Shown here piece by piece: positions 20,649-61,285 of a stretch of 62,917 bases of DNA. The DNA is taken from contig JAAOMT010000787.1 in the NCBI GenBank assembly GCA_016748015.1, forward strand, positions 25,008-87,924. Direction: 5' to 3'. The position numbers and the translations under genes were made by a program. Within the stretch, counting starts at the first letter, position 1; each line of letters starts with the position of its first letter. The notes beneath the pieces were generated by a model that saw nothing but the letters and a program-made list of their open reading frames with translations, had not been told where the DNA came from and did not search any database. Origin of the DNA: Geosiphon pyriformis uo1. Lineage: Eukaryota > Fungi > Glomeromycota.

Positions 20649-20652
20649 ATGT

Positions 20653-39026: not shown

Positions 39027-39923
39027 TGTTACTCATAGAATATAGGAAATATAGTATTATTAGTCAGTAGATATTAGCCAATTAGAAGTAGACATAGTAA
39101 ATGTAGAATTCCAGGATTCCTCTCAGGAATTGCAGGATTCCAGGAATTTCAGGATTCCCCAATGAGAAATCGCAGAATTCCAAAATTCCAGGATTTCTCT
39201 CAAAGGAATTGCAGGATTCTAGGAATTCCAGGATTCCTGTTGTGAAGAATCGAGGAATTGAGGAATCTCAATTATGTATATATAGCAGCAGGATTAGAAG
39301 CTGAAAAGACAGACCTTTTAGTATAGATTTAAATCTAAGCAACATTCCAGTTCCCAATTATCAAATAAATAATTATTCCATATCTCAGCCCACTCTCTAC
39401 TATTAACACTTCATGTTGATAGTAATTGAAACTTAACCCTGCTGGAACAATAGCTCTTGATCATGGCTATTGATGAGATACTAACATACCAAATTGCTTT
39501 GGTTTATTTTCTCTATTTTCTTTATTTTATTTTCTTTATTTTATTTTCTTTATTTTATTTTCTGTTTTGATTTTGTTGTTGTATACTAATTGATTAAAAG
39601 ATTAAGCACTGAGTTATTGACATTAAGGATAGCCTGATAAAAGACCCAGAAATAAGGGTAGGATTTTATATATTATCAGATAGCTTACCAGAAGGGCACG
39701 ACTGCCAGACTAAATCCAGCCACCACACTAAGAAAGAAATTGGAAAAACTCTTAGAAAGATACATCTACTATCGACGAAATTGAATCTTTGTCCATTATA
39801 CAAAGAACTCTATCAAAACCTTCAGATACAACACTTTCAGAATACCATTGATGGAAATAGCTTTTGAGCACCAAATTACAGATTTGTTATTTAATTCAAC
39901 AGCAGAAATAATTACTTGTAACA
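39027..39923 (+). repeat. 5' LTR of element A (897 bp)
   Basis: TGTTAC...GTAACA ends; GGAATTCCA/GGATTCC subrepeats at 39105-39268; TATATATA near 39278. Confidence 0.95.
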
Positions 39924-39925
39924 TT

Positions 39926-39937
39926 TGGTGCTCCCTG
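39926..39937 (+). promoter_or_regulatory. Primer-binding site of element A (possibly tRNA-Ile(UAU))
   Basis: TGGTGCTCCCTG lies 2 nt after the LTR. TGGTGCTC complements a ...GAGCACCA tRNA end. The tRNA identity is inferred. Confidence 0.7.
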
Positions 39938-42900
39938 TAATGTATAATCTTACAGAAAACCAGCACCAACAAACACTATCCAAAAGTAGCAGAATCAAAA
40001 ATTATAGGAGCAAACTATTTAGGATTTGCAAAATCCTTATTTCAACACTATTGTCAATACTTGGGATTAAACCACAATTATATATCCGCCGAATCAGCCT
40101 TCAACTTCTATGTTAACAAAAAGATTTTCTCTTTATTAAGAACACTAGTGAATACTGAATCAGCAAGAAAAACTTTCTATAGGGAGTTAATTCAAAACAC
40201 CAACCTGCCAACAAATCATAATTTCGCATCCATCATCACTGAGATCAACAAAGAAATTGAACACCACACTCAACAAAGATATCCAATTACATATGCTAGT
40301 AAAGGCAAGAGAAAACTACAAACACCAGCAGTAACACCCAGAAAAATACAGCCACTTACTTGGAAGAAAAACAGAATTGAATTCCCAAGCAACCCATCCT
40401 ACCACTATACACCTAGAAGCACCATCAACATATCATTAACAGACACATTCCCATCAACTGCAACATCAGCATTTGGATAATTCCTATTCTAAAGTAGACA
40501 AAAGAAAACAGAATTATTAGAACCATATGGCAAATACTTCGAGGGATTTAATTTACAATCATCAACTCCATCAGGACTTCGATTACCACCATCTCCACCT
40601 GATTTCGGAATTTCTGATCCGTGGAAAGCAGCAAAATCAGAAAAAAAAGAAGAAGAATCAGAGGATTAAAAATTCACTTACCAGCAACCAATTACTGAAA
40701 ACCTGGAAGTTGAAACCCCGAATTTTCAAACTCAGCAAAATCTAAATCTAGAAAATTCGGAAATTGAAACTTCGAATCATCAAAAGCAGAACAATCCAAA
40801 CCCTGAATTAATTAATCAGCAAAACTTACCTCCAGTAATTGTCATCGATCAACTGCCAATTAATCCCATAGCCGAACCCATACAACAGCCATTTCAACTA
40901 CCACCCCAACAACCAGTACAACAACAACTGCTTTAACAGCCACCACAACCACCTAATTTAGATCCAATGGCCTACGCACCAATCGCAAAACTTGACAACT
41001 TTACTGGTGAAAAGGATGATGCTCAAGTATGGCTGAATAATATAAAAAAGACCATCGCAGCCAATGGATGGAATGACGCCTGAGCAATGCAAGCCATTCT
41101 CTACTTTCTCAAGGATACTGCCAATTTATGGTATCAAAGCTTGGTTAATAAACCACAAGATTTCAATGCCTTCAAAGCAGAATTCTTAAGATACTTTAGC
41201 AACAATAACAGCATCAATCGCCTAGTCAATACATTTACCACTATGAAACAAAGAAAAACTGAAGCAGTTACCACTTACCTGGGATGCTTCTATCGAAACC
41301 TGCGCCAAATTCAAGCAATTAATGCCAACTATTTTACAGCCCCACAGATACTCAACCAGTTTATCCATGGTCTGTGCAGCAGCATCTTGCAACATGTATG
41401 TCTGTTACATCCAGGCACTCTTCAAGACACAGTCACATGCGCCAGGGATTTTGAATCCACTAAATCAGAAGCTAATCATGCCCAAGCCATTAATCTAGTA
41501 ATGAATGGATCATCTGAATTGGATTCCAAATTGGAGAAGTTCAGTGAATTAATTAATAAAAGATTGGAAGGATACTTAGCTGACAATTACACCATTTATC
41601 AGCCTCCACAATGATGCAATAATCAAGAAAACTCTAATCATGCCCAAAACCAACCACGTCTATCTTCATTGACCAATCAACAGTGACAACAGGAAATGCG
41701 TATCTGCCACTATTGTGGTAAACAAGGACATATCCAAATTGACTGTCATCAGCGTTTAAATAACCAATGATCGAGAAATCAATATTAAAACCCCAATTGC
41801 CGGTTCTCAACTTCAAATCATCAATCAAACTCAACACAATATCAAACTATTTACCTGCCAATGACACAGCAATCAATTTATCAGCCACTAGTATATCAAG
41901 CTCCAATTTATCAACCAACGGCCCCAATTTATCAGCCACAGCTACAGATAATGTATTAACTGCAACCACCAACAATCTATCAACCCCAAACAATTCAGAC
42001 TCCACTACAAAACTTACTGGCCAGCAGAGTCTAAAGGCCGAAAATCACGCAGCAAAATTGGAGATCATCCATGGTAATTCATCAGCCAATCCCCAGCTTC
42101 TTCAGCCAAACAGAATCTCATCAATGGAATTTGGGCGCTGGAAATCCCCAAAACCCAAATTCCCAGAACTATTTAAGTCTCCTGGTTACCCCAGAAGACA
42201 CCTCACCCAGCAATCAGAAACTCACTCAAAAACAACAAACACATACCAGCAATATTCTACCAGCAACAGTTACCAATGATGAATCACTGGACGCCATCTT
42301 TTCATTCGAATTAGAGAAACCGTTGACCACGCCATTATTTAGTAGAGCTGCATTGGAAGAAAAGCCAATTACTGCCATGTACACTGATGCGAAAATTGAT
42401 GGCCATCACATCAAACTAATTCTTGACAGTGGTTTAGCAGGCAGCATCATCACACAACAACTTATGGATCAATTAGGTCGCCAAGTTGATTGAGCTGTCA
42501 GCACCAGAATCATCACAGCCGATGGAGCGACCAAAACTCCAATCGGCGAAATCAACAACTTTCCTTTCAAAGTCAATGGCATCATAACTTCCATTAAAGT
42601 TCTAATGATAGAAGCCACTCAATACCAAGCTCTCATTGATAATGACTGGCTATTCAAAGTCAATGCAACATTAGACTGGAACACCCAGGAACTTCAGCTA
42701 ACATATTAAGGCCGAAACATACATGTACTGGCCATGTGTGGCCATTTCAAGACTTCTTCAAGAGAGAAACTATTGATCGAACTGGAAGAGGAAAAAAAGA
42801 AACCTACCTGAAAAGCTTACCAAGTCTTCTGGGTCGACACCAATCACAACAAACTACCACTGATACTCTCATAGAATGACAGTCCTAAGGGAAAGCAAAA

Positions 42901-43989
42901 AGAAGAACTGACCTGAGAAACAGACGATTTGACCTGGACTGACAATGAACAGAAAAAACCATCGAGTTGGAAGTAGAAAGAAGAAAAGAGAAAAAGAAAA
43001 GAAAGGGAGGAAGAAAACACTCAGGCCAACAACACTTATATCTCATACATCTATGGTCAACAACAATCATTGACCTATTGCTAACCCAAACTAATATGCA
43101 TTGATTGCGGCAAGAAATTGTTATCAATGGGTACATGCTGTGGCAACAATGAAGAATATCAGATGGCAACCAAGTTCTATTGCCATGCATGCTGTGTTAA
43201 ACGTTTTGGAAGACCAAAACAAGTGAAAAAATGAGATAATACACCATGTATAGCCTGTGGAAAAACTCTCTTCGATGAAGGAATGTGGAATAACATTTCA
43301 GGGAGAGGAGAAACGTGTGACATATTCTGCCAATACATGATTCTCATTAGCAATTGGGTCAAGAAAGGAACACCCATCGAAGTCGTCTGGAGAAGAGCTG
43401 TACAATGATTGGACAGTTGTCTCCATGATGACGATAAATTATGGTGGATGGCAATCGCCAAAATTGAAGGCACATCACCAGAAGAAATTAGGACAATTAA
43501 AAACAACCCACCAGAACCCATTGAGCTTGACTGGGATGCCAAGCCAGTCATAAATTTTCTGAAACCAGAAGAGTTCCATGAACACTACCAAAACTTGGCA
43601 CCCACTAGAAAAGAGCAGGAACAATAGCTAGCACAGTTAAATACAAAACTGTGTCACTATTGTTTAATTCCCAGTGACTTTGAATATTGTGATAATTGTG
43701 ATCTCATTTACAATCTACCACCACACATAATCTACACAATCCCTGAAGAAGAAGAACCAATCAGCAGCTGTCTATCGAAATTAGAATTGCTGATCAATCA
43801 TGATCTAAACTCTGATGACAATGACAAAAACACCAGTTCTAGCTCCATTCAAAATAGCAATGACAACAAAGACAATTCAAACTCAGATTCAAACTCTAAT
43901 TTAAACTATGAACAATACATTGCACTACCAGATCTCTCCAAGGAACAAGAGTTAAAATGGTATAATAACAATGGGGAAGGTATTATACC

Positions 43990-44385
43990 AAGAACATGTG
44001 CATGATACTAATACAGAATTTGATCTGAGATATCCGGCAACAGAAGCCATCAAATTGGAACCACATACATGCATCTGCATTGATCTGAAAGTAGCACTAG
44101 AAATTCCAGCAACAACCATGGTTCAATTAGCATCTAAGAGTAGTTTAGCGAAAAGAGGGATTAATATAAAAGGAGGAATAATTAATGTGGGATATATAGA
44201 AAATATCATTGCTATGCTACAAAATGACTCAGAAAAGGCCTATGTAATAAAGCCCAACAAAAAGATAGCACAGGCAATATTCCTGCCTCTGGTTAGAGTA
44301 GCTCAGTTAGTGTCAGTGAGAAAGAGGGAGGAATTAGGAATAACAGTGAGAAAAATACAGGGATTCGGATCAATGGGTAGAATAG
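43990..44385 (+). pseudogene. dut: dUTPase domain in element A
   Basis: Trimeric dUTPase motifs in order: DTNTEFDL (AGFDL), KSSLA (RSS), GGIINVGY (GxIDxGY), KIAQAI, RKIQGFGSMG. Confidence 0.85.
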
Positions 44386-46275
44386 ATGTACTAGTTAATA
44401 TGGTGGAGGAAAAAATTGTTGACCAAGGAGAAATTATCTCAACTGGTTAAGCTATTTCCATTTCACTATATAACCAGTACATGCTAGCAATAGAAAGAAA
44501 AGAAAAAGACCAAGCACAAATTTTTGAAGCAGAAGCCAGTCTTTGTAAATCAGGAGAAATTGGACTTATCAATCTCTACATACCAGCCAAAGATTACAGC
44601 CACATCAAAATTCCCATCTACAACAATACAGACAATGTTATAAAAATACCAGCCAGAACTATTATTGAATACTTAAACACAGAAATGAAGGATCTAACAC
44701 CAAATCCTATTCCAGACTTTTCACAACTTTGTGGATATATTGATATCACATCACAAACAATATATGGACGAAGTGAATGTTATTTGCTCTAATCAGAACA
44801 ATTGGAACAAATGAACATGAGAAACTTAGATCCACTCTAATGTATGCAACTCAGAATGTTGCTCAACCAGTTCAATAACATCTTTGCCAGCGAAAATGAG
44901 TCTGGTCGAACTGACATCATTCAGCATCAGATCAAGACTGGAGATATGATGCCAATTAAACAAAGAGCATACAGAGTACCACCAGTCAGCCACGAGATTA
45001 TTTGTCAAGAAATAAACCAAATGCTTGACAATGGGCTAATTCAGCCATCAATAAGCCAATGGTTATTACCAGTGGTACTCATCCATAAGAAAAATGGAAA
45101 GATCCGATTTTGTGTAGACTACAAAAAACTCAATGGTGTAACTCGTGGAGACAACTATCCAACTCCATGGATACAGGAATTATTCAATGCTTTTGGCAGA
45201 AACAAATAGTTCTTAACGTTAGACTTAGATAGTGGTTACTGGCAAGTAGCCATGGATCCAGCTGACAAAGAGAAGATGGTATTCACCACAAGAGAAGGGA
45301 ATTTTGAATTTAAAGTAATGCTATTCAGTTTAACCAATGCACCAGCCACTTTTCAATGGCTAATGGAAATCATCTATACTGGCTTATTGTAGAAATCAGT
45401 AGTTATATACTTGGACAACACCAATGTATTCTCAAAAACATTTGATGATTATCTTTATTATCTTCAACAAATGTTCGAAAGACTAAGAAGAGCAGAGCAA
45501 AAATTAAATGCAACAAAGTGCTTCTTTAGCAAGACAGAGCTAAAATTCTTGGGACACATAGTCAGCAAAGATGGCATCAAAACAGATCCAGAGAAAATAG
45601 AGATAGTAAAAAACTTTCCAGTACTGACCAATATGACAGAACTGAAATCATTCTTGGGATTTGCCAGCTACTATCAACGTTTTATCAAGAACTTTTCCAA
45701 AATAGTGCAGCCACTTAACCAACTACAAATCAAGAATACCAAATATGAATGGGCAAAAAGTCAACAAGAAGCTTTTGATATTTTGAAAAGAAAGCTTATT
45801 CAAGCTTTAGTACTAATTTATCCAGATCACAGCAAACCATTCATCATCACCACCAATGCATCCAGCCAAGCATTGGGAGCAGTATTATCTTAGAGAAGAC
45901 CAGACAACAGAGAACATCCAGTAGCATATGCCAGCAGAGATTTAACACCAGCTGAAAAGAACTATGGAACACCGGAACAAGAACACTTAGCAATATACTG
46001 GACAGTCATGAAATGGAGAGAATACTTAAGCCAGAAGTTTAAAGTATACACAAATCACAAGGGATTAATATCACTCCAAAAACAAGAGATTGGAAATGAA
46101 AGACAGTCAAGATAGAAAATGTTACTCACACTATACAATTATACTATACATTACAAAAAAGAAAAAAACAATGGAAATGCTAACGGTTTGTTGCAAATGA
46201 GACAAATCTAAGAACATTTTAACACAAAAAAATATAACAAAACCAGAACAATACCAACAAAAAATATAACAAAAG

Positions 46276-47658
46276 ATGAACATACAAAAATATCAACAAC
46301 TGCAACATTATATAAACACTTAATAATTCAAAGAGAATTTATCTCAAACGGAACGAAAGAGTATCAAACAACAATCAAAATATTTTATCACTCACCAAAA
46401 TATATTTTATCAGAAAAATAGAAAAAACCCAGATCAACCAACCAAAGTAATTACAGAATCAGAAAAAGAGACAATATTATTCAATATGTACTCAAATCCA
46501 ACAGCAGGACACTTTCACAAAGAAGCAACCATGGAAAGAACCAGAAAATGATACTATTAACTATCAATGTATCCAGACATTATCCAATATGTTCAAAATT
46601 GTGACACTTGTTAGTGAAGAGAAGAAACAAGACACAGTAAACTATTAAGACCAATCAAAGTGGGACAATTATTTGACCAGATTGAAATTGATTTAGTCGG
46701 ACCATTAACAATTACCAGCAGAGGAAACAGATATATAGCAGTAGCCATGGACTATCTCACTAAATGGCCAGAGACAAAAGCAATTCAAAAAGCAGATGCA
46801 GAATCCGTTGCCGAATTCGTTTATCAAGATTTAATTTGTCGACACAGATGTCCAAAGGAATTATTATCAGACCAAGGAACTCATTTTGTGAACAGAACAT
46901 TAACAGAATTGAGCCAAAGATTCGGAATTAAGAGACCATTATTATCACCATACCATCCACAAACCAACAGATTAGTCAAAAAATTCAACAGAACATTGTG
47001 TAAAGCAATTGCCAAACTCAGCCAAAAAAACCAGGACAAATGGGATTTGTTCATACCATCAGTATTATTTGCTTATTGGACAATGAAGCAAGATACTATA
47101 CAAGCAACACCATTTGAATTAGTATATGGTAGAACAGCAACATTACCAGTAGAAAGAGAAATTAATACATATCCAGCTGAACCAATAACAGAAGAAAATT
47201 TTCAAGAAACATTGCTAAAAAGAACATATGACTTAATAGAAACATTGGAAAACAAACAAAGAAAAGCAGCTGATAATATTCAAAAGTCACAAGAGAAACA
47301 GAAAGAAAGACACAATAGTCAACTACTAGACAAGCCAGTTGAATTCAAGATTGGAGACAAAGTACTCTTACATCGTACCAAAACGGAAAAACAATGGAGT
47401 GGAAAATTCGACCCCAAATAGAATGGGCCATTTCACATAGAAAAAATTCTAGAAAATAAAGTGTACAAATTAAGACTGGATAACAAAATTTTAACCAAAG
47501 CAGCACATGGAGATCAACTGAAACTATACCACAATATCACACTACCATCTACCAGTAATATTTCACAATTAAGAGTACAGAGAATACTAGTCCAACCAGA
47601 TAAGATTCCATGAGATCTGGAACCAATAGTTATTATCAACAATAACATGTTAAATTGA
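46276..47658 (+). pseudogene. Integrase of element A (HHCC, DDE core, GPF; no chromodomain)
   Basis: AGHF...CDTC, IEIDLVGP, LSDQG, YHPQTN and K*NGPF motifs; has its own ATG at 46276. Confidence 0.88.
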
Positions 47659-47712
47659 TTCAGCAAAAGAATATATAAAGACATGGTAGACGCGACAGGA
47701 AATATCAGAAAA

Positions 47713-48342
47713 ATGGAAATTACAGACAACATTCACTCACTAGCACAACAACTCTTTCAGTTAATCTAATACCAGGAAATGGAGATTACAATCAATCAAC
47801 AAACCATTCGATATCAAGATACTAGGAAGACATTGCAATCCAGAACACAGAAGAAAACTGAAAATATGGTGGACAAAATCATTGTGAAAGTAAAATTAAC
47901 AATAAAAGAGTTGACAAAAGAGGCACTATATCAAGAGTTGACTAAAGAAACTTGGAATTGGTAAATACAACAATTTCCAAGAAACTATTGTTATTTTTAC
48001 TTGGGACAACACATAAACATCCAGAATCTATATATGGATAAAACAAAGCAATTATTCGACAAAAAAATACTACAACAATTAGAATATTTTGTAAGAAAGA
48101 ACAACTTATCCACATAGGCCCGAGCCATCTACCGAATACACACAGCATTTCAAGATAGACCAGAAATATTACTCAACAAAGCAATAGATATGGTTACCAG
48201 TAATCAATTGGGAAAGATCACCAATGCTCAATTTGAAGAATTACAGACCCAAATAACACAAGTAATTCTCGAAAACGAAATCTAGGAAATACTTTAAGAG
48301 GAGAAATTAAACAAGTTGGATTTCGACGGAGCTCAATATTAA
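47713..48342 (+). pseudogene. Accessory ORF3 of element A, unknown function
   Basis: One ~210-codon frame with a few stops: MEITDNIHSLAQQL...YCYFYLGQH...RAIYRIHTAF...LGKITNAQFEELQTQI...LDFDGAQY*. Homologous to ORF3 of element B. Confidence 0.7.
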
Positions 48343-48352
48343 AAGGAGGGAA
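48341..48352 (+). promoter_or_regulatory. Polypurine tract of element A
   Basis: AAAAGGAGGGAA, 3 nt before the 3' LTR. Confidence 0.8.
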
Positions 48353-48355
48353 TAA

Positions 48356-49224
48356 TGTTACTTATAGAATATAAGAAATATAGTATTATTAGTTAGTAAA
48401 TATTAGCCAATTAGAAGTAGGTGTAGTAAATGTGGAATTCCAGGATTTCTCTCAGGAATTGCAGGATTCCAAGAATTTCAGGATTCCCTGACGAGGAATC
48501 ACAGGATTCCAGAATTTTAGGATTCCTTTTAAAGAAATTGCAAGATTCCAAAAATTCCAGGATTCCTGTCATGAAGAATTGAGGAATTGAGGAATCTCAA
48601 TTATGTATATATAGCAGCAGAAATAGAAGCTGAAAAGACAGACTTCTCAGTTTAGATTTAGATCTAAGCAACATTTCAGTTTTCAATCATCAAATAAATA
48701 ATTATTCCATATCTCAACTCACTCTCTACTATCAACACTTCATGTTGATAGTAATTGAAACTTAACCCTGCTAAAATAATAGCTCTTGATCACGGCTATT
48801 AATGAGATACTAACGTACCAAATTGCCTTGGCTTATTTTCTCTATTTTCTTTATTTTATTTTTTGTTTTGATTTTGTTGTTGTATACTAATTGATTAAAA
48901 AATTAAGTACTGAATTATTGACATTAAGAATAACCTGGTAAAAGACCCAGAAATAAGGGTAGGATTTTATATATTATCAAATAGCTTACCAGAATGGCAC
49001 AACTGCCAAACTAAATCCGGCCACCATGCTGAGAAAGAAATTGGAAAAACTCTTGAAAAAATACATCTATTATCGACACTATTGAATCTCTGTCCATTAT
49101 ACAAAGGACTCTATAAAAACCTTCAGATACAACACTTTCAGAATACTATCGACGGAAATAGCTTTTGAGCACCAAGTTATGGATTTGTAATTTAATTCAA
49201 CAGCAGAAATAATCACTTGTAACA
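48356..49224 (+). repeat. 3' LTR of element A (869 bp)
   Basis: Matches the 5' LTR; 28 bp shorter in the TTTATTTTATTTTC repeat. Confidence 0.95.
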
Positions 49225-49228
49225 TTGG

Positions 49229-52200
49229 GCAAGGCAATTTCGGCCTTTGGATTATGTCTTCAATGGTGTCTTCTCTGATGTGATACATTCAATCAGTTTT
49301 GATGAGATGTTTGGTGTTATTTCAAATTTGCCCAATAGGAAAACAGCTGGTCTTTCTGGTATCACTAATGAACTTTGGAAATACTGTGACAAGTCGGTCT
49401 TGGATATGCTTTTGGTGCTCTTAAATTTTTGTTTGGATTGTGAATCAGTGCCTGGACCTTGGAGAAAAGCCTGGATCTCAATGATACCTAAATCTTATGA
49501 GTGAGAGGGGGTTCTTACAAATACCTGTCCCATTGCTTTGATTGAGACAACTCGCAAGGTTTTTTTTAAGATTCTTTCAGATCAGATCTCTCTGGCTTGT
49601 AGCACTTTTGATGTCCTCTGTGGGGACAATTTCTCTGTCCTGAAAGGTACATCTACTTAATTGCCTATCTTCGCTATTGGTTTGGTGATCAAAGATGCTT
49701 TGGAAAAGAACCAAGAATTGTGGCTGGTTTTACAGAATATGCACAAAGCTTATGATTCTGTTGGTTGGGAGCATCTTAAAAGAAGTTTGATCAGAATCAA
49801 AATGTGTAACAAATTTATCAGATTTTTTGGTAGCATTTATAATAGTCACACTAACAAAGTAATAACAGATTTTGGTTTGACTGATTCATAATAAATTGGA
49901 TCAAGGGGAGATTTTTTTGCCACTTTTCTGAAGCATATTTTATGACTCACTTTGTGTGAGGTTAAGAGACAGGAGAGCATTTGTAATTACAGGTTGATTT
50001 TTCATTTTATTTTTAAGATTGGCTGGATAGAATCTCAAGCTGGGCTAATGTTGTTTCTGGCTACTGGTGCTTTTGTTAATGATATTATCTGAGTTGGTAG
50101 CAGTCAGGCTGCTACACAACACATCCTCAATATTGCTAGTGATTTTTTTTGTTTAAATGACATTTCGATAAACAATGACAAGATTGTGGCCATTCCTATT
50201 AACTATTAGGTCACTGTTCCTTATCTAACTATTAGTGGTCTGCCAATTTCTATCGCTAAAAGAGGTGAATCTCATCATTATCTAGGGATTTTTTTATTTT
50301 CTAAAAGTCTTTTAAAGCCTAGCTTGGTTAAGGCACATTCAGATGTTTGGTTTTTCATCAATTTCATTCTAAGAAAAGTTATTTCAGATAAACAGTTTGC
50401 TTATTTGGTGTCTTTAGTTCTCCTTTCTATTGTCAGCTACAGAACTCAGTTTAGTTTTATTCCTTTCAGTGTGTATAATAAATAGGACGCTTTGATTTAC
50501 AAGAGCCTGAAATCCAAATCTGGGCTGCCTTTGGACTTTTCCAATGATGTGCTTTATCATTCTTCCTTGTACAATTTAAAAACTTTTAAGCAGATTCAGG
50601 CTGAAAGCAAGTCGGCTTCTGTCATTGCTTTTGTGAATTTGGTTGGTGTTTTGGGTCGTTTGTTTTTTCATAGGTCTCATGATTTCCAGATTCTCAGCTG
50701 GTATTCTCGTCACCCTTTGTTGTTTCCTGTTCATGTTAGAGTCAGCTCTTTAAACAACTTTTTGGCAGGTGTGGTTTGTATTTTTTCTGGGTGTAATTTA
50801 TCTTTGAGTGGCTCTCTGGCTGGTGCTTTTTGTTTTCAGAACAGTACTTTTATGTCTCTAGTTCTTGGTAAGGTGATTTTTTTCAAATGTGTTTTTTTCC
50901 TCAGGCATTATGATATTGTTTTCGTAGAACAGCTTTGTAACTGGAATGGCATTGTTTTTGATTGGAAGACTTTCAAGCATTAGAAAAGACTGGACCCCCA
51001 TGGCCCGGTTCCCTTCTGGTTTGATCTTTCTGTTCGTTTTTTTGGTGGTATTGCTTCTCTTTCTGGTCATTCTCCTCATGAAGGTGTTTGTGGCTCTTCT
51101 GACATCCGTCAGTCTCTTGGTTTTGGTGTTATTTGTAATGATCTGTTGAATGTTGGTGCTGCCTGCCTCTCTGTATACACAGATGGATCTCTGAGTAACT
51201 TGAGTACTGTTGACATGTTGGCTGGTGCTGCAGTTTTCTTTGAGGACATTGATTCAGATCTGGGTATGGAGGTTTCTGGTTTGGTTTCTTTTACTTTGGC
51301 GGAGTTGCAGGCTATTGCTTTAGCTTTTGAGTGTGTTTCTTTTTTTCATTCAGTTGACTTGTTCTCGGACAGCCAGGCAGCTTTAGATGCTTGCAGGTTA
51401 GAGCCTTTATCAGTTGGCCCTAATTTCAGGAATTGTTGTTGGATTGAGTGCTGTCATATCGCCAATGTCATTTGTCGCAAAAATTTGGATGTTAATTGAA
51501 TTAAGGTTAAGAGCCATTTGGGTGTTTCAGGCAACAAGTGTGTTGATGCATTTGCTAAAAATGCTGCCCTTTCTGCCTGACATCTGCCCCACTTGGTCAG
51601 TAAGAGGTTTTTGAAGACTAGTGTTAATACAGTTTCTGGTAATTTAAGGCATTTTGTTTGTGATGTATTCAGATCAATCCATCGCATGTATTGGGAGGTT
51701 GGTTCTGGTTTCCAAGTTGTTCCAGGTTGTTTGTGTGCTAATATTGACTGGTTGAGGTCTTCTCTGGTTTGGCACTTTGACTCCCACTTGGCTTTAAGTT
51801 TCACTAGTGTGTAAACTGCTGGTCTTTGGACGTATTTTATGAAGGCTTTTCATTGTTGGCTTCCTGTTGCTGTGTGGAAGCATTTATATAATAGGAGTTA
51901 TCCCAGTGTAATGTATTTGTTTTGTGGTGATATCGAAGTCTCGGACCATATTTTTTCTTGTACATTTAACACTGTTGGTCGTGTTCAGTTGTTAAATACT
52001 TATATATTAGCTTGGGAGACATGTTCTAGTTTGGTTCAGTCTTCTTCGTGTGTCTCACAGTTGTTGTCTTTTTGTGTTGCTAATGTTGCAGTTGGTGCTG
52101 CTCTGTATAAGAGTTTTGTTTTTGGTGATTGGAATCATGAATCAGTTTTGGTTTTCAGAGATTTTGGGATTGTAACATTGGTCATTGTGGATTTTGTGTG

Positions 52201-52389
52201 TGCATTTTGTCTCTCTTTTTGGGATGATATTTGGCTGGTTTGTGCTAAATACCAGGCTTTCATGGAGAAAAATAGGCTGATTCCACATGATAGTTCTATC
52301 CCAGCCTCAGTTTCTGGTTCTCTTATGTTGTTTTCTCCTGGTGTGGTTAGATTGTTGGGTGTTGCTAAGGCTTTTGGTGTTGGTTTTGG
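49229..52389 (+). pseudogene. LINE ORF2 part 2: reverse transcriptase, RNase H and C-terminal Zn-binding motif
   Basis: KTAGLSGITNE, WRKAWISMIPK, CPIALIE, QNMHKAYDSV, DQG and AFVND (FVDD, ~50070). RNase H motifs VYTDGS, AELQAI, FSDSQAA, KVKSH..GN. C-terminal LFCGDIEVSDHIFSC. Confidence 0.9.
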
Positions 52390-53368
52390 TGTTACCAGAT
52401 GAAATTAGAGATATTATTTAGCATGAAATTATCTTATAATTCTTATCATTAATTAGCATATATTATCGTTTTAAATGATCACTTATTATATTAGCAAAAA
52501 TGTCTGAAATTATCATTTAATTAATAACCCAAATTGTACACAACACCAATGTAACCTAATTGCGATGATCAATCATGCAATACTCCGAACTATGTAACAT
52601 TCAAAAAGTTCGCCGAAATTTGTAGAAATTCGCCGAAATAATTGATAGTTCACTGAAATATCTAATAGTTTGCCGAAATAACTTATAGTTTGCCGAAATG
52701 TATCTTTAGTTTAGCGAAATTGTAGAAAATAGCAAAGTTCGAGTTCATAGAATAGTGTTACAACAAGTTGTATAAAAGAAGAGCTTCTTTCTTCGAGAAA
52801 ATATATCTTACTTTAGATTTATCTCTTAAAACTGTTCCTATACACACAAAAAGAAATAAATATCAAATAATTCGAAAAACCAAATTCTTTAATTATTGTA
52901 CTTGGAAAATTCCCAAAATCCAACTAACATTTTGAAATTGATTAGCTACCAATTTCAGTAAACTGTTAGTGACTCCAGGCCTGAATAGAAAACATTTCCC
53001 TTGATAAGATCCTATTTCTTTTACACTTCTTTTATTTTTCTTTCTTTTCTTATTACAATCATTAGGGTAGCCTACAGACGAGATTCCTGTAGAAGAATTG
53101 ACTTTTACAGCAAAGTAACTACACATTTTAGTGAGCTTCCAGACAAGCAATTCCTGGGAAAGAGTTAACGTTTACTACAACGTAACTACATAAAGCAACT
53201 GGCACGGAATTGGCCATTCCACTCATAAGCCCAGCAAGTTCAAATTATAGGAGATAATTTGAAGATAAATTCAGTTACTGGACGTTTAACCACATCCAGA
53301 AAACGTGAATTCACAGCAAATAAGTATCAACAACATTACAGAAAAGAGACCAAAAACCTCCAGTAACA
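52390..53368 (+). repeat. 5' LTR of element B (979 bp)
   Basis: TGTTAC...GTAACA ends; ~20-bp-period AGTTCGCCGAAAT subrepeats at 52606-52722; TATAAAA near 52771. Confidence 0.95.
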
Positions 53369-53370
53369 TT

Positions 53371-53388
53371 TGGTGCTCTCCCACGGAA
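53371..53388 (+). promoter_or_regulatory. Primer-binding site of element B (same TGGTGCTC core as A)
   Basis: TGGTGCTCTCCCACGGAA lies 2 nt after the LTR. Confidence 0.7.
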
Positions 53389-53413
53389 ATAACACAGCAA
53401 AAACAAATTCAAA

Positions 53414-56400
53414 GTGGCGACCACACCAGACACAACAACTCTAGAGTATTACCAATCAATTTACACCCACTGCAAGCAAAAATTCAACATTCCAGACGGA
53501 ATTAAAGTTGTCAAAAAATCAGTTTACCAATACATTGAAAACCGCATTAACAATTATCTTTTTGGAAATTATAATATCTCAGAAGTTAGAAACAACCTTT
53601 ACAATAATTTAGTACACTATTCACAGTTGGAAACTGAAGACCTTAATAGTGAAACACTTGCCACTTACTTTTACGAACTTAATTTTAACATTATCAAATA
53701 CTGTGAAGAAACATATCTAGTGCAGTCTCAATACACCATTGATTTTGAATTGGAAACAGAAACAAGCAACAAAAACAAATTAAAGCAATATTCAAGAACC
53801 ATCCCAAATACTCCAACACTACCGAAAACAACTGCCAAACATTTACAAACACCTGAACAAGGAACCAGTTCAAAACTTCTACTTACTATCACACCTTTTC
53901 TAGCTTCACTTGCACAAGCACAAACACCTAATTCACTCTTGAATTGATTTGCAAGACCAGAAGATTTTACATCACTCAGAAGTTTCATCAAACAACAAAA
54001 ACCCCTTCAAACTAGTTCCAATCTCCTTGATTTTCTAGCTGAAAATCAAAGTGAACACTTTGAGACAGCAGCAAACGAAAAAAACAACTCTGAAATAACC
54101 GAAGAAGAATCAATAAACAGTGAAAATGAAGAAAACAAAATGACAACATACATCGCAAAAATCTCTGAATTCAATGGAGAAGATATTGAGACCAGTCCCT
54201 AAGAATGGCTTGACCAAGTTACTAAAGCTGGAGATGCAAATGGATGGAATGCTGCCAGAATGTTAAGAACAATTCCCTACTTTCTCAAAGGAATAGCAGG
54301 AGAATGGTTTGAAAACCTTGCCACCCCATTCAATGATTGGAATGCTTTCAAAGCAGCCTTCCTTGAACAGTTCACCGACAATAATACCTCTATCATTCTT
54401 CGCAATCATTTTTGAAATATCAAACAAGAACCCTCCAAATCCGTTATGACTTATATTGGGAAATTCAACAAACTTCTCAGACGGATTTGCCAACTCGAGA
54501 CAAATGATTATTATTCTGATGCTCAAATCTTGGATCAATTTATCGCTGGTCTAAAAGATAAACTAATTAAAAAGGTTTGTCCACATGCACCAGAAGATTT
54601 AAACTCTGCAATACAGCACGCGAAAAGATATGAAATGGCCATAGAAGAAGCCAATTATACAAAACTTGTAAATTTGGCAATTGGAGAAACCAGTTCAGCA
54701 GCTGAGGAAAAAATTGACCAACTCACATAAAAAGTCGAAAACTATTTTATCAACTAACAACAACAACAATCCCAAAGATATTAACCACCCCAAAGATGAA
54801 ATCAAAATAACTTTGCACCACTTTCCAATAACCAGCCCCAAAATTGCCATTACTGTGGAATCTCTGGCCACTGGAAAAGAGATTGCAGAAAGCTGCAACG
54901 AGACCAACAAAATAGGGGTAATCAATGTTACTCTCTACCACAGTAATCTTATTATCAACCATTACCACCAGCTTACTATCCACCAAGACCCCAATACCAA
55001 AATAACTATTATCAGCCCGCCCCACAACCAATCCAACAGTAATACCAACAACCACCCACACAATATTATCAAGTACCTACTCGAAAACTGATTACACAAA
55101 ATCAATTCACACCACAAAACTGATACCAAGTAAACAACAGTAGAATCAATTCGAACAACCAATTGATTTTCCGAAATACCACTCAATCAAGACCCAACCA
55201 TTACCACACTCAACCCAGTTATTTAACAATGCCGGAAGAACAGGATTTTCACCATACTGTACTCTTGGAAGGTAGAGCTGCAGCACAACAACAACAAAAC
55301 CCTTTTCATAACCACATCACTATTCTACCAGCCCAAATTGCTGAAAATGCCAATCTTTCTAATATCTTTCTTTTTGAATTTGAAGCAAATGAATCACCAT
55401 TCTTGCTTAGCAATGCAGTGGCTAATGAGCAAAAAGCCATCACTGCAATGTACGCAGAAGCTGAAGTAGAAGGAAAGCCAATTCGCTTGATCCTAGACAG
55501 TGGATCAGCCGGAAGCATTATTACCTACCAGTTAATACAACAGTTGAAAAGAAATGTTGACCGACCAGCTCAAACAGTAATCATTACTGCCGATGGCATA
55601 AAAAAGACACCAGTGAGAGAAATTGACAATTTTCCATTCACTCTTGATGGAATTACCATTCCAGTCAAAGTTCTTGTAATGAACGCATCCCAGTACCAAG
55701 CTCTTGTCAGAAATGATTGGCTTCAAAAAGCCAATGCTAATCTGAATTGGGAAACACAAGAGTTAACAATCTCCTACCAAGAACAACATGCCCAAGTACC
55801 TACCATTTGTGGTACATTTAACAAATGCTCTATACTTCAACAACAATGGACAAGGAATAAAACCTGAAAAAGCACATGAAATTGATGCTAGATATGACCT
55901 AAGATATCCAGGCAAGGATACTCTTGTTCTCAAACCCAAATCTCTCACAAAAATCAACCTCAAAATTGCATTCGAAATCCTGCCAGGAGCAATGGTTCAA
56001 ATCGCCTCTCGGTCCTCTCTGGCAAGCAAAGGAATCAATGTCAGAGGAGGAATAATCGATGCTGGATATACTGGAGACATAACAGTAATGCTTCAAAATG
56101 AGACTAACTAACTATTCAAGATTGAACATGCTGAAAAAATTGCCCAAGCTATTTACCTACCCTTAATCAACATTTTGGGTTTGCAACTAGTCAATCAAAG
56201 AGAACAATTAGGAAAAAGCGATAGAAGAACTCAAGGTTTTGGTTCAATTAGACGATTCACAGTTCCAGTTAATATAGCTCTTAACACACAGAATGAATCC
56301 CACCAGATTCTCAGACTTCTACAACTGATTACCATCTCACCCTTTGGAGAACATCCAGAAATTTACACTTGCACAAAGCCAACAACCACACAACAAATTT

Positions 56401-58094
56401 TTGAGTCCAATGAACAAGTCTGCTTGGAACATAATATTTTAATCCCAAACATTTATATTTCAGAAGGAACAAAAAAAGTCTGAGTTACTTTTTACAACCC
56501 CAATAATTACCCCATAATTTTATTAAATAATTTAGAAATTGGAGTTATTCACAGTAATATATTTCAACAAGAATTACCCCAAACAGTCCCCAATTTCTCT
56601 GAAATTATTGGACATTTACTACCAAAAATCAACCCAAACCCTAGCTCTGAAAACTACTATGTTGTCATAGAAAAACTATCTCGAATCAACATGGGACAAC
56701 TTGAACTACAACAACAGACCCAGCTCAAAGAACTAATTGCAGAATTTGCTGATATCTTCGCCGAAAACAACAATGACTTAGGAAGAACTGATTTGGTTCA
56801 ACACCAAATCTATACAGGAGATGCCAAACCTAAGCGACAACAAGCCTACCAAGTTGCTCCAGAAAGTCACCAATTTATCCAAGAAGAAGTACAACGGATG
56901 CTTAACAATGAGCTTATTCAACCATCAATGAGCCTATGGGCCTCACCTGTGGTTCTAGTTAAAAAGAAAAATGGAAAGATACGATTTTGTGTTGATTACT
57001 GACAACTCAACAGTGTCACTATTGGAAATGCCTACCCTCTTCCCCAAATTGATGACATGTTGGATGCCCTTAGAAAGTCCAAATACTTTTCAACATTAGA
57101 TTTAGAGAGTGGATACTGACAAGTTGCTATGGATCCCAAAGACCGCCCCAAAACAGCATTCACTACTCAAGGAGAAAATTACGAGTTCAATGTAATGCCT
57201 TTTGGATTATGCAATGTACCAGCAATATTCCAAAGACTCATGGATGTTGTTTACAAAGGCCTCCTTTGGAAATCAGTAGTAGTTTATCTTGATGACACTG
57301 ATGTTTATTCACCATCTTTTGAGCTACATTTAATTCACCTGCGAAAAGTTTTTCAACAATTACGGAAAGCAGGATTGAAACTGAACATTGAAAAATGCTA
57401 CTTCGGAAAAACAAGTTTAGCTTTTCTTGGTCACATTGTTAGCAAAAATGGAATTAAACCAGACCCTAGAAAAATCAGTACTGTCAAAAACTTCAAGACT
57501 CCACAAAATACCACAGAATTAAGAGGATTTATTGGATTAGCATCCTATTACTGAAAATTCATCAAAGGATTTTCAGAAATTGCAAAACCCTTCAACCAGC
57601 TCACTACAAAAAATGTCAAATACAAATGAACAAAAGAACACCAAAATGCCTTCGAAATACTCAAGGAAAAACTCACAACAGCCCCAATTCTCACCTACCC
57701 AGACTTCAGCAACCAATTCTGGTTAGCAACTGATGCTTTTTATACTGCCTTTGGTGCCATCCTATCACAGTTAGATGACAATAGAAATGAGTGAGTAATT
57801 GCTTATGCTAGTAGAACATTAAAGCCAGCCGAAAAGAACTACTCTGCAACAGAATTAGAAACCACAGCAGTAATCTGGGCCCTACATCACTTCAACCTTT
57901 ACCTCAGACCCAAAGAATTCGATATTATCACTGATAATATTGGACTTAAATGGCTTCAAAACAAAAACACCCAGCTGAATATAAAACAAACCTGATGGAC
58001 AGGATTTTTAGCTAATTACCAATACATTGTATACCACAAACCAGGAAAACTTCACACCAACGTTGATTGTCTCTCAAGGATGAGGCAAGATTAG
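53414..58094 (+). pseudogene. gag-pol: Element B gag-PR-dUTPase-RT-RNase H polyprotein
   Basis: Capsid-like YIAKISEFNGED...EWF from 54140; CHYCGISGHWKRDC at 54845-54886; LILDSGSAG at 55496; RFCVDY and YLDD at 57285-57296; RNase H LATDA...YASRTL...ELE. Confidence 0.9.
55830..56250 (+). pseudogene. dut: dUTPase domain in element B
   Basis: IDARYDL, ASRSSLA, GGIIDAGYTGDI, KIAQAI and RRTQGFGS motifs. Confidence 0.9.
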
Positions 58095-58142
58095 AAACAA
58101 AACCGACACCCAATTGAATTAACAGCATCAAAACAACAAACA

Positions 58143-59499
58143 ATGAACTCCGAAAACTACAACAATCTCAAACAATATTTGGAGACATTAATAATCCCAA
58201 CATATTGGTCCCCAGATGAAAAACATCGGTTACAACAACATTATCTATCATCAAAATTTCAAAAACCCAACCAAACCACTCAGATTAATACAAGAACAGG
58301 AAAAAGAGACCATTTTATACAACATGCATTCGGATCCTTTATTAGCACATTTCGGAAAAGATAGCACCACCCAAAGAACACTAGAATACTACTTTTGGCC
58401 TCGAATGAGAAAAGACATTCACGAATATGTCGAATCTTGTGATAGTTGTCAAAGAAGAGAAGGAACTTGCCCTACAGAACCTTTAAATCCAATCAAAGTT
58501 GGACAGCCTTTTGACAGAGTTGGTATCGATTTAGTTGGACCACTATCTATTACCACTCAAGGAAACCGTTATATTGCAGTAGCTGTAGACTATCTTACTA
58601 AATGGCCTAAAGCCAGAGCCATTCAACGAGCAGATGCAAAATCAGTAGCAAATTTTATCTATGAAGACATCATTTGTAAACATGGATGTCCAATTGAACT
58701 TTTATCTGATCAGGGAACACACTTTGTGAACAACCTGATACAAGAAATTTGTGAACGATTCAATGTCAAAAGACCTCTGTCTTTGCCCTACCATCCACAA
58801 ACAAACGGACTTGTGGAACATTTTAACAGAACATTGTGTGAGTCATTAGCCAAAGTCTCAACCAATTTTGAGCAAGAATAAGATCTCTTTATTCCATTAG
58901 TGTTACTAGCATATAGGACATTAAAACAAGATACCATGAAACACACACCATTTGATTTAACTTATGGAAGGACAGCAACGTTACCAATTAGTTTCACAGT
59001 GGAAACATACCCAACACAACTGATTAATGAAAACAATTTCCAAGAAACGCTTCAGCGAAGAGCCTACACTCTGCTTAGTACATTAGAAGGAAAATGACGA
59101 ATAGCAGCCACCCATATTGAACACTTCCAAGCTCAACAAAAAGAACGGCATGATGACAAATTGCCTTCAGTCACCAATAAATTCAAAATTGGAAACAAAG
59201 TTCTCTTACACAGAACTAAAGCTGAAAAACAATGGAGTAGAAAATTTGAAAATAAATGAGATGGCCCATTTTTTATCCATAAAGTCCTAGGCAATAGATC
59301 ATACAAGCTAAGACTTGATGACAAAATCCTAGCAAAAGTTGCATATAGAGATTGTTTGAAACACTATCATTCCAGAAACAATCCTGAACCATTAATTCCA
59401 CAAATTGGTACATATTCTTCTTTGGTCAGTTCTGAAGATATTCTCCGAAACTTAGAACCAATAGTTGTCATTGAACAACCTTTCAACTTGAACACTTAA
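58143..59499 (+). pseudogene. Integrase of element B (no chromodomain)
   Basis: MHSDPLLAHF...CDSC, VGIDLVGP, LSDQG, GLVEHFN and *DGPF motifs; has its own ATG at 58143. Confidence 0.9.
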
Positions 59500-59616
59500 T
59501 TTAATTTTACTAGTCATTCTCTTATAATTTAGAAACAATTTCACAAAAACAAAAACAAAAATAACATAAAAACCCATACACCAAAAATAATTTTTATTTT
59601 TTTTCAATTGCTTATA

Positions 59617-60293
59617 ATGACTATTCCTCAAAACATTCAACAATTATCCCAAAAACTAATGTTAGCTTTAAAAACAATACCCAAATTATCTATTACTGTT
59701 ATTGAAAACCACATTAATTATACCCAAACAAAAGTAGTTACAAATTTAGCCCCAAACTCACGAAAATATCATCCATATAAAAAGAACACAAGAAGTTATA
59801 CTGGAATTTACCTGCCAGAACTTTTAAAGCTTGCTTTAAGAGAAAGCCTAATGCTCACTCCGATTAGTATTTCACCAAATGCTACAATTCAACAAAAACT
59901 TCAACTGTGTTTCAATGAGGAAAACACTGAATATCCTCTAATCTATAGATATTTTCACATTGGAAAAACACTCTACGAACGGAAACTAGAACTTACAACA
60001 GCAAACTTCACAAAAGAAGCTATTCAGAAACAACTCCACAACGAATTCAAGACAACAGCTGGATTAACAAACAGTCGCTACAGGCTTAGAGCCACTCTTA
60101 GACTTTATGACCTATTCCATACCTGTGAAAATGTACTACAAAACCCAATTTTTCAATCTTTGAAGATTTAATACATTGGAAAGCTCACAGAACTGAAATT
60201 TCAACAATTTTCAGACCAAATTTCTTTAATAATTTTAGATTATTATCTGGAAAAAACAGACAGTACTTGGACTTCGATGGAGCTCAGTCTTGA
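59617..60293 (+). pseudogene. Accessory ORF3 of element B, unknown function
   Basis: Open for ~184 codons: MTIPQNIQQLSQKL...YRYFHIGKT...RATLRLYDLF. It then reads *YIGKLTELKFQQFSDQI and, after a shift in an A-run, LDFDGAQS*. Confidence 0.75.
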
Positions 60294-60304
60294 GAAGGAA
60301 GTTA

Positions 60305-61281
60305 TGTTACCAGACAAAATTAGAAATATTATTTAGCATGAAATTATCTTATAATTTCTATTATTAATTAGCATATATTATTGTTTTAAATAATCACTTA
60401 TTATATTAGCAAAAATGTCTGAAATTATCATTTAATTAATAACCCAAATTGTATACAATACCAATATAACCTAATTGCAATGATCACTCATGCAATACCC
60501 TGAACTATGTAACATTCAAAAAGTTTGCCGAAATTTGTAGAAATTTGCCGAAATAATTGATAGTTCACTGAAATATCTAATAGTTTGCCAAAATAACTTA
60601 TAGTTTGCTGAAATGTATCTTTAGTTCAGCAAAATTGTAGAAAATAGCAAAGTTCGAGTTTATAAAATAGTGTTATGACAAGTTGTATAAAAGAAGAGCT
60701 TTTCTTTTCGAGAAAATATATCTTACTTTAGATTTATCTCTTAAAACCGTTCCTATACACACAAAAAAAAAAATATCAAATAATTCGAAAAACCAAATTC
60801 TTTAATTATTGTACTTGGAAAATTCCCAAAACCCAACTAATATTTTGAAATTGATTAGCTACCAATTTCAGTAAACTGTTAGTGACTCCAGGCCTGGATA
60901 GAAAACGTTTCCCTTGATAAGATCTTATTTCTTTTACACTTCTTTTATTTTTCTTTCTTTTCTTATTATAATCATTAGGGTAGCCTATAGATGAGATTCC
61001 TGTAGAAGAATTGACTTTCACAGCAAAGTAACTACACATTTTAGTGAGCTTCCAAATGAGCAATTCCTGGGAAAGAGTTGACGTTTACTACAACGTAACT
61101 ACATAAAGCAACTGGTACGGAATTGGCCATTCCATTCATAAGCCCAGCAAGTTCAAATTATAGAAGATAATTTGAAGATAAATTCAATTACTGGAGGTTC
61201 AACCACATTCAGAAAACGTGAATTCACAGCAAATAAGTATCAACAACATTACAGAAAAGAGACCAAAAACCTCCAGTAACA
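60305..61281 (+). repeat. 3' LTR of element B (977 bp)
   Basis: Matches the 5' LTR; preceded by PPT GAGAAGGAAG (60292-60301). Confidence 0.95.
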
Positions 61282-61285
61282 TCGG

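What the first reader, a model, noticed from the sequence alone, without database searches (positions are those of the whole stretch)
39027..61281. Two divergent gypsy families share a complex, retrovirus-like gene set (candidate undescribed lineage)
Elements A and B have unrelated LTR interiors but the same plan. Both have a long N-terminal Gag extension, capsid, CCHC knuckle, protease, dUTPase, RT, RNase H, a stop, an ATG-initiated integrase without chromodomain, and a third ORF. Both also have TGTTAC..GTAACA ends, a TGGTGCTC PBS and 4-bp TSDs. Typical fungal Ty3/gypsy elements are chromoviruses with 5-bp TSDs and no accessory genes. Conservation across two families implies an ancestral, selected architecture. 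I do not recognise it as a described clade, but I cannot search.
Basis: partly seen in the sequence, partly recalled or inferred. Interest (0 to 1): 0.8.

Follow-up and report, generated by a model that had tools for sequence, protein, structure and literature searches.

The report
Split-integrase fungal retrotransposons with extra cargo
Two decayed jumping-gene families, likely from the fungus Geosiphon, belong to a wider retrotransposon lineage whose integrase is a separate gene behind a stop codon, likely made by ribosomes restarting; their extra genes (a dUTPase, a cysteine-rich domain and a small third gene that lacks envelope features) are shared by the two but rare or unseen in the relatives sampled.

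Summary
The anatomy is largely real. A (39027-49224) and B (52390-61281) are decayed, high-copy Ty3/gypsy elements nested in one LINE. Both have unrelated LTR interiors, 4-bp TSDs, the same PBS-like site, gag-PR-dUTPase-RT-RNase H, a stop, an ATG-started integrase without chromodomain, and homologous ORF3s.

The interpretation needs re-weighting. The lineage-wide trait is the split pol. A and B sit in a supported non-chromovirus RT clade (96/99) with Rhizophagus elements; 39 of 46 clade proteins have a full RNase H end and no integrase, and 3 relatives' contigs show integrase as its own ORF 14-110 nt downstream, in varying frames.

The 'retrovirus-like set' is labile cargo. dUTPase occurs in 3 of 42 relatives and is already published for fungal and rotifer gypsies. 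ORF3 has no membrane segment, and all 240 listed hits were Geosiphon. The Gag extensions are not alignable.

I found no description in 10 literature searches, but could not check Repbase or GyDB. This scan noted the split integrase four times before on other DNA. Verdict: new variant of a known kind.

The parts
39027..39923 (+). Element A 5' LTR (897 bp, TGTTAC..GTAACA); 4-bp TSD TTGG at 39023-39026 and 49225-49228
39926..39933 (+). A primer-binding-site-like TGGTGCTC, 2 nt behind the LTR; tRNA not identified
39941..41788 (+). A gag: ~340-aa N-terminal extension (start codon uncertain, possibly in the LTR), capsid 40976-41467, CCHC knuckle 41702-41746
42368..42673 (+). A aspartic protease, same frame as gag
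43034..43711 (+). A cysteine-rich domain of unknown family (36% to P0212, 33% to B-family P0159)
43995..44720 (+). A dUTPase (Pfam 44019-44372, motifs decayed, frameshift near 43966) followed by a second beta domain, predicted dUTPase-like fold
44808..46211 (+). A reverse transcriptase and RNase H, ending at TAA 46209-46211
46276..47658 (+). A integrase as separate ORF: ATG 64 nt after the stop, different frame; N-terminal extension, H2C2, DDE core, SH3/GPY region, no chromodomain
47683..48342 (+). A ORF3 (ATG at 47683 or 47713; ~209-219 aa in intact copies); polypurine tract 48341-48352
48356..49224 (+). Element A 3' LTR (869 bp)
52390..53368 (+). Element B 5' LTR (979 bp); TSD TTGG 52386-52389 / TCGG 61282-61285
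53371..53378 (+). B primer-binding-site-like TGGTGCTC
53393..55830 (+). B gag-protease in one frame: ~250-aa extension, capsid from 54140, CCHC 54842-54892, protease 55424-55783; deletion of the cysteine-rich domain with frameshift near 55830
55842..56600 (+). B dUTPase (Pfam 55863-56246, all five motif positions recognisable) and second beta domain
56685..58094 (+). B reverse transcriptase and RNase H, ending at TAG 58092-58094
58143..59499 (+). B integrase as separate ORF: ATG 48 nt after the stop; frameshift near 58232 in this copy; no chromodomain
59617..60336 (+). B ORF3, 239 codons, one in-frame stop; runs through the polypurine tract (60292-60301) and 32 nt into the 3' LTR
60305..61281 (+). 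Element B 3' LTR (977 bp)
20653..21635 (-). Solo LTR of family B (90% to both B LTRs), 4-bp TSD ATGT
36648..61351 (+). Host LINE (endonuclease, RT-like middle, RNase H) into which A and B inserted; pieces 36648-39026, 49229-52389, 61286-61351

Best explanation
A and B are dead copies of two sister Ty3/gypsy LTR-retrotransposon families, likely of Geosiphon pyriformis, in a lineage whose Gag-Pol reading frame stops after RNase H and whose integrase is a separate ATG-started gene, likely translated by ribosomes restarting on the same RNA, with ORF3 as a third gene arranged the same way.

Shown: the layout, the RT and IN clades, stop and ATG positions in 5 elements, and integration with 4-bp duplications.

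Inferred from established Ty3/gypsy biology: LTR-to-LTR transcription, Gag particle assembly, tRNA priming at TGGTGCTC, and plus-strand priming at the polypurine tract.

Inferred and untested: restart translation of integrase and ORF3; non-covalent recruitment of free integrase to the particle or cDNA; dUTPase keeping uracil out of the cDNA; ORF3 acting as a soluble, possibly nucleic-acid-binding regulator rather than an envelope. dUTPase, the cysteine-rich domain and ORF3 are best read as accessory cargo fixed in the A/B sub-lineage.

My odds: split-pol lineage about 0.9; cargo specific to a sub-lineage about 0.75; restart as the route about 0.45.
For: - RT-RH tree, 41 rows: A+B 99/93; 20-row clade 96/99, with chromodomain-bearing loci far outside (bootstrap not fully settled). 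The 84-row quick tree gave SH-aLRT 98 for 34 rows.
- IN tree, 52 rows: A, B, R. clarus P0344, L016, L028 and fused P0336 group at SH-aLRT 100, so IN is native to the lineage.
- Census of 46 clade proteins: 24 end within 30 aa of the RNase H end, 15 carry a longer non-integrase tail, 3 lack the end motif, 4 contain IN. Three of those 4 are R. clarus gene models that jump from inside RNase H into IN, while P0587 of the same 90% cluster ends at RNase H. R. irregularis gag-pol models end there too.
- Stop-to-ATG spacers are 64, 48, 30, 110 and 14 nt, 47-64% A; 3 of 5 are out of frame and L016 has a second in-frame stop.
- ORF3: 206 and 134 protein clusters; maximum 19-residue hydropathy 0.27-1.04 in 4 of 4 tested.
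- Element dUTPases share lineage-specific flanks.
Against: - No RNA, ribosome or protein data.
- Spacers up to 110 nt are long for coupled termination-reinitiation as I recall it from viruses.
- Only 3 of 9 clade loci show the integrase gene; the others end too early or show none in the little DNA held, so some members may lack IN altogether.
- L037 has a poly(A)/(T) run right behind the RNase H stop, which would fit a transcript ending there.
- One clade member, P0336, has a fused IN.
- In copy B the ATG is in frame with pol, and my test of the TAG across other copies was inconclusive.
- No named GyDB or Repbase reference could be put in the trees.
Confidence: 0.6

Rival explanations
1. Same split lineage, but integrase and ORF3 are made from subgenomic RNAs (spliced from the 5' LTR or started at an internal promoter), as env and other ORF3s usually are.
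For: PMC5408684 (passage seen) states that LTR-retrotransposon ORF3s are typically expressed from spliced messages. Spacer length and frame are unconstrained. AG dinucleotides behind T-rich stretches lie upstream of B's ORF3 and IN ATGs (sequence). L037 has a poly(A)/(T) run behind the RNase H stop.
Against: No conserved acceptor in the 5 spacers; L072's 14-nt spacer has no AG. The ATG stays close to the stop in all 5. Earlier scan notes report start/stop overlaps in other genomes (unchecked).
Confidence: 0.35
2. Integrase is joined to Pol by stop read-through, frameshifting or a regulated intron, as the R. clarus gene models imply.
For: B's and L016's ATGs are in frame with pol. P0344, P0585 and P0586 are annotated as RT-RH-IN fusions.
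Against: 3 of 5 junctions are out of frame, L016 has two stops, and a Met is conserved at the same place in all 5. The modelled intron removes the last conserved RNase H motif and uses different acceptors in different models.
Confidence: 0.1
3. One reading: one ancestral, selected retrovirus-like gene set (Gag extension, dUTPase, env-like ORF3) defines the whole lineage.
For: A, B and P0212 share protease, cysteine-rich domain, dUTPase, second beta domain and RT in that order. dUTPases of distant clade members share flanks, compatible with one early gain and many losses.
Against: dUTPase in 3 of 42; NUDIX ahead of protease in 2 others. Gag extensions not alignable. ORF3 lacks membrane segments and was not found outside Geosiphon among 240 listed hits, 88 loci, or one prokaryote-genome scan.
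Confidence: 0.15
4. The stop and ORF boundaries are decay artefacts of C>T mutation in dead copies.
For: LTR differences are 78 of 85 (A) and 47 of 50 (B) transitions, and every ORF has stops. TAA and TAG could derive from CAA and CAG.
Against: Relatives with uninterrupted Pol end at the same place, many with several independent members per cluster. Junction frames differ between elements.
Confidence: 0.04

Closest known systems
Ty3/gypsy LTR retrotransposons (Metaviridae), non-chromoviral
   Same: LTRs with TGTNR ends, PBS-like site, polypurine tract, capsid, CCHC, protease, RT, RNase H, IN with H2C2/DDE/SH3 in gypsy order.
   Different: Integrase is outside the Pol frame; extra cysteine-rich domain and ORF3.
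dUTPase-bearing fungal gypsy elements (PosPlaTy3-5 of Postia; Phanerochaete elements; Tmt1 of Tuber), PMC2864245
   Same: dUTPase between protease and RT (stated for PosPlaTy3-5).
   Different: The paper treats its dUTPase elements as chromodomain-type (supplement title) and reports one fused or two ORFs for most elements. A and B lack the chromodomain and group away from chromoviruses.
Bdelloid Vesta/Juno/TelKA LTR retrotransposons, PMC5408684
   Same: dUTPase plus a family-specific ORF3 of ~200+ aa behind pol; labile cargo.
   Different: Their ORF3s are env-like, TM-bearing, GDSL or DEDDy. No split between RNase H and IN appeared in the passages I saw.
Ginger1 DNA transposons and YPYY-motif gypsy integrases, PMC2836005
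   Same: Free-standing gypsy-type integrase with an N-terminal extension before H2C2, TGTNR ends, 4-bp TSD.
   Different: Ginger1 has terminal inverted repeats, no RT, CCGG-type targets and often a protease tail. Here IN sits inside an LTR element and trees with its own RT lineage; no Ginger1 sequence was available to test kinship.
Ylt1-like fungal non-chromoviruses, PMC2864245 and PMC3248453
   Same: Fungal, non-chromoviral gypsy; about 9-10 kb (Ylt1 9453 bp, PMC5014426); 4-bp TSD for Ylt1 is recalled, not from a call.
   Different: Described from Dikarya; a single fused ORF is recalled. Kinship untested.

Membership tests
Ty3/gypsy (Metaviridae) | Direct LTRs with TG..CA ends, TSD, PBS and PPT | tested here: met
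   priming tRNA not identified
Ty3/gypsy (Metaviridae) | Domain order gag-PR-RT-RH-IN | tested here: met
Ty3/gypsy (Metaviridae) | RT groups among gypsy elements | tested here: met
   nested among fused-IN gypsy sequences; named clade references absent
Ty3/gypsy (Metaviridae) | Integrase made as the C-terminal part of Pol (the usual layout) | tested here: not met
   stop and separate ATG in 5 of 5 junctions seen; census. I treat this as a derived variant, not exclusion from the superfamily.
Chromoviruses | Chromodomain at the IN C-terminus | tested here: not met
   no Pfam Chromo in A or B IN, while 5 of 6 control loci scored
Chromoviruses | RT monophyly with chromoviruses | tested here: not met
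   separate supported clades
env-bearing elements (retroviruses, errantiviruses) | ORF3 with signal peptide and transmembrane anchor | tested here: not met
   maximum KD19 0.27-1.04 in 4 of 4 intact ORF3 proteins
env-bearing elements (retroviruses, errantiviruses) | Fusion-protein fold | tested here: inconclusive
   model pLDDT 46; no clear match
Ylt1 clade | RT/IN grouping with Ylt1 | not testable with these tools
   no Ylt1 sequence could be retrieved
Ginger1 | Terminal inverted repeats and no RT | tested here: not met
   direct LTRs and RT present
Ginger1 | YPYY motif ahead of the zinc finger | tested here: inconclusive
   similar Tyr/Pro pattern by eye in 7 integrases; no Ginger1 sequence or profile to score
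Gmr1-like gypsy (label recalled) | IN upstream of RT | tested here: not met
   IN is downstream; loci with upstream IN (L041, L074) fall outside the clade
Trimeric-type dUTPase | dUTPase fold and five motifs | tested here: met
   Pfam above cut-off in A and B; Z 14.5, rmsd 2.7, 113 aligned; motifs partly decayed in these copies; activity untested

The most novel reading that the evidence does not exclude
An old Mucoromycota lineage of LTR retrotransposons has turned the textbook Gag-Pol polyprotein into a three-gene polycistronic RNA read by serial ribosome restart, with ORF3 as its own restart or anti-silencing factor, and its free-standing integrase is the living intermediate from which Ginger1-type DNA transposons can arise.
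Probability: 0.12. Interest if true: 0.85.

Novelty: new variant of a known kind. Interest (0 to 1): 0.5.

Why it matters
LTR retrotransposons and retroviruses normally get integrase into the particle by making it part of Gag-Pol. A successful lineage that separates it must use another route for translation and packaging, and that can be tested in Rhizophagus, where relatives with uninterrupted Gag-Pol exist. LTR elements cover 41.2% of the G. pyriformis genome (PMC11952901), and these two families contribute hundreds of proteins annotated as hypothetical host genes. Gene models also splice the stop away, which may be why the layout has gone unnoticed. The cargo (dUTPase, cysteine-rich domain, ORF3, NUDIX in relatives) is a further example of known modularity and matters less.

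Tried and rejected
- No whole genome was held, so genomic copies could not be collected.
- ORF3 fold: model pLDDT 46, three-helix core at 108-172 only; best Z 6.5 among unrelated helical proteins; no viral match under E 0.001. A DUF1016_N hint was far below cut-off (Atlas 0.85). Not used.
- Cysteine-rich domain: no Pfam match, Atlas best 0.77, not folded with confidence.
- dUTPase source: PDB hits span bacteria, eukaryotes and viruses within a few bits; donor not resolvable.
- Profile comparison of the second beta domain with dUTPase was weak on its own (hhalign 5.6%, E 0.007).
- Sequencing runs: no RNA holder listed.
- Laying contigs on B's stop region listed no differing letters at 4%, but the filter also listed none elsewhere in the 110 bases, so this is inconclusive. 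Summed depth was not used as a copy number.
- Viral contigs gave no clade member. Genome contigs gave no ORF3 relative.
- The 84-row careful tree did not finish twice, so a 41-row tree was run. P0270 and P0250 moved in and out of the clade between trees. P0212 could not be placed with support, though nearest to B (65%).
- A CpG-centred target preference like Ginger1's was considered and dropped: n=3, and A's target lies in a LINE Trp codon.
- Foreign capture of the integrase was not supported among sampled sequences.
- No complex prediction was run.
Full report
Observation. The window (no N, AT-rich) holds two LTR elements on the + strand. A spans 39027-49224 with LTRs of 897 and 869 bp that are 90.2% identical (85 differences in 869 columns, 78 transitions). 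B spans 52390-61281 with LTRs of 979 and 977 bp that are 94.9% identical (50 in 977, 47 transitions). A and B LTRs share only their ends (best blastn E 1.3). A solo B LTR lies at 20653-21635 on the minus strand. All three insertions have 4-bp duplications. A and B sit in one LINE (endonuclease and RNase H by Pfam), whose frame continues after skipping 4 bases and not 5; contigs from other LINE copies join across B's site. The LTR end plus TGGTGCTC occurs exactly twice, against 0 in 100 shuffles. The priming tRNA was not identified.

Gene content. Pfam finds capsid, protease, dUTPase, RT, RNase H and integrase without chromodomain in both; the CCHC knuckle is just under cut-off. Gag and protease share a frame. 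A versus B identities are capsid 39%, protease 57%, dUTPase 47%, RT-RH 51%, IN 59%, ORF3 22%; the Gag extensions give no significant match (E 0.11). First, a ~225-aa cysteine-rich domain between protease and dUTPase in A matches unnamed P0212 (36%, E 6e-37) and B-family P0159 (33%, E 2e-19); of the 12 other proteins tested besides P0159 and P0164, only P0212 aligned over its length. Copy B has lost it by a deletion near 55830. Second, a beta domain follows the dUTPase. In a model of P0159 (overall pLDDT 48, this domain about 65-85) the top six Foldseek hits are the two-domain Epstein-Barr virus dUTPase over ~245 columns (E 3e-11, rmsd 12), ahead of single-domain enzymes (3.5e-8). The wide search matched only the first domain to dUTPases (Z 14.5) and the second to generic beta sandwiches at Z under 5. 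A degenerate second dUTPase fold is therefore likely, not shown.

Source. ORF3 of B returned 206 clusters and ORF3 of A 134; the 120 listed in each search were all Geosiphon pyriformis hypothetical proteins, apart from the window's own protein (100 hits were not listed). I infer that the window is G. pyriformis DNA and that both families are high-copy. LTR elements cover 41.2% of that genome (PMC11952901, passages seen).

Relatives. The best single-domain RT-RH matches (50-56%) are mostly unnamed metagenome proteins. Cluster look-ups tie some to Rhizophagus irregularis (P0300, P0326), R. clarus (P0344) and Calcarisporiella thermophila (P0270); 26 of 30 clusters looked up gave no organism. In a 41-row IQ-TREE run A and B are sisters (99/93) within a 20-row clade (96/99; bootstrap correlation 0.986, so rough), with chromovirus loci as outgroup; 5 of 6 such loci tested carry a Pfam chromodomain. 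An 84-row quick tree gave SH-aLRT 98 for 34 rows and placed P0270 and P0250 outside; FastTree on 286 rows gave 0.96 for 60 rows. Rows were chosen by me from search hits, near-duplicates were dropped, and no curated reference element was available. The IN tree (52 rows) recovers A, B, P0344, L016, L028 and P0336 at SH-aLRT 100, so integrase travelled with its RT.

The split pol. I scored 46 proteins: the clade proteins without P0270 and four near-copies of P0205, plus P0335 and P0212. Of these, 24 end within 30 residues of the RNase H end motif, 15 continue into a non-integrase tail, 3 lack the motif, and 4 contain integrase. Three of the four are R. clarus gene models. Models in that cluster leave RNase H before its last conserved motif and enter IN at two different acceptors, while P0587 of the same cluster simply ends after RNase H; I read them as annotation artefacts. 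The fourth, P0336, is a true fusion. One metagenome scan (3 of 64 parts read, best 80 kept) gave 9 clade loci. Three (L016, L028, L072) show IN as its own ORF, three end before the RNase H end, and three show no IN in the 0.1-0.9 kb that follows. With A and B, the stop-to-ATG spacers are 64, 48, 30, 110 and 14 nt, A-rich, 3 of 5 out of frame, and all five integrases start Met-x4-Tyr-x2-(Leu/Ile)-x2-Tyr. Read-through or simple decay cannot give this pattern. My direct test of B's TAG in other copies was inconclusive.

The cargo. dUTPase is in 3 of 42 clade proteins that span protease to RT (P0212, P0312, P0345) plus locus L022. All share distinctive flanks with A and B, so one gain followed by losses or exchange is plausible. 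L072, the weakly supported nearest relative (87/39), shows none in the kilobase before RT. Two relatives carry a NUDIX domain before protease. The two ORF3 families are homologous (93.9%, E 1.6e-7), soluble by hydropathy, and without a usable fold match. An ORF3 profile found nothing in 88 loci or the non-ORF3 proteins held, but only L016 and L028 among clade loci reach past IN, so absence elsewhere is weakly tested. ORF3 follows IN after a stop and a 24- or 117-nt spacer, the same arrangement as IN after RNase H.

Mechanism. Shown: three tandem ORFs between LTRs, and past integration with 4-bp duplications. Inferred: ordinary gypsy replication; restart translation of IN and ORF3 (about 0.45) against subgenomic RNAs (about 0.35); non-covalent delivery of IN; dUTPase as a guard against uracil, the role proposed for retroviral dUTPases (PMC2864245); ORF3 as a regulator. 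Stop-restart in fungal and animal RNA viruses is recalled, not from a call. The restart reading was strengthened by start/stop overlaps reported in two earlier scan notes, which I did not check.

Literature. Ten full-text searches listed no paper describing this clade or layout; most listed papers I saw only as title and start of abstract. Read further: PMC2864245 (passages and section 5 whole), PMC2836005 (parts 1-3 of 5), and passages of PMC3248453, PMC11952901, PMC5014426, PMC5408684 and bioRxiv 10.1101/2021.03.30.436303. No supplements were opened; those of PMC2864245 and PMC2836005 list elements that may bear on novelty. The Geosiphon genome paper was not held, and Repbase, GyDB and REXdb cannot be searched here. 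So 'undescribed' means not found in these searches. Four earlier notes of this scan report the split integrase on other DNA; none held all the words for the dUTPase, ORF3 and cysteine-rich cargo.

Verdict. New variant of a known kind, interest 0.5.

Noticed in passing
window 19718-27831: About 8.1-kb element built almost wholly of nested inverted repeats (arms of ~930 and ~2500 bp, 88% alike, with ~790-bp and 17-bp subrepeats), foldback- or DNA-transposon-like, with the solo B LTR inserted in its left arm.
   Followed up: no
window 1322-2560 and 4267-5502 (-), third partial copy near 18300-19150: Tandem BTB/BACK-TLDc genes on a ~2945-bp repeat.
   Followed up: partly
P0327 and P0371: Clade members with a NUDIX hydrolase domain ahead of the protease: possibly a second nucleotide-sanitising cargo in the same lineage.
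   Followed up: partly
P0323, P0331, P0370, P0269, L013:2007-2687: A subclade whose Pol continues after RNase H into a 200-400-aa acidic tail ending in a Cys/His motif, with no integrase in the protein; whether an IN gene follows is unknown.
   Followed up: partly
L037:1561-1670: RNase H stop followed at once by a poly(A)/poly(T) run; either an assembly artefact or a transcript ending before integrase.
   Followed up: no
L016:1-2916: Clade member with a very long Gag whose N-terminal half is an array of Cys-x4-Cys repeats.
   Followed up: no
L028:1236-2930: Separate integrase with a ~140-aa predicted coiled-coil C-terminal extension in place of an ORF3.
   Followed up: no
window 39851-39940 and 53270-53392: The gag frames appear to run upstream through the PBS into the LTR; A's 5' LTR has an in-frame ATG at 39851 that its 3' LTR lacks, so the gag start is unresolved.
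   Followed up: partly
P0270: A Calcarisporiella thermophila gene model also ends just after RNase H and joins the clade in one of two trees, hinting at a range beyond Glomeromycotina.
   Followed up: partly
window 18000-48000: Strong CpG depletion (observed/expected 0.06-0.4) over the repeat-rich part against 0.6-0.95 in the first 16 kb, as expected from methylation-driven decay.
   Followed up: no
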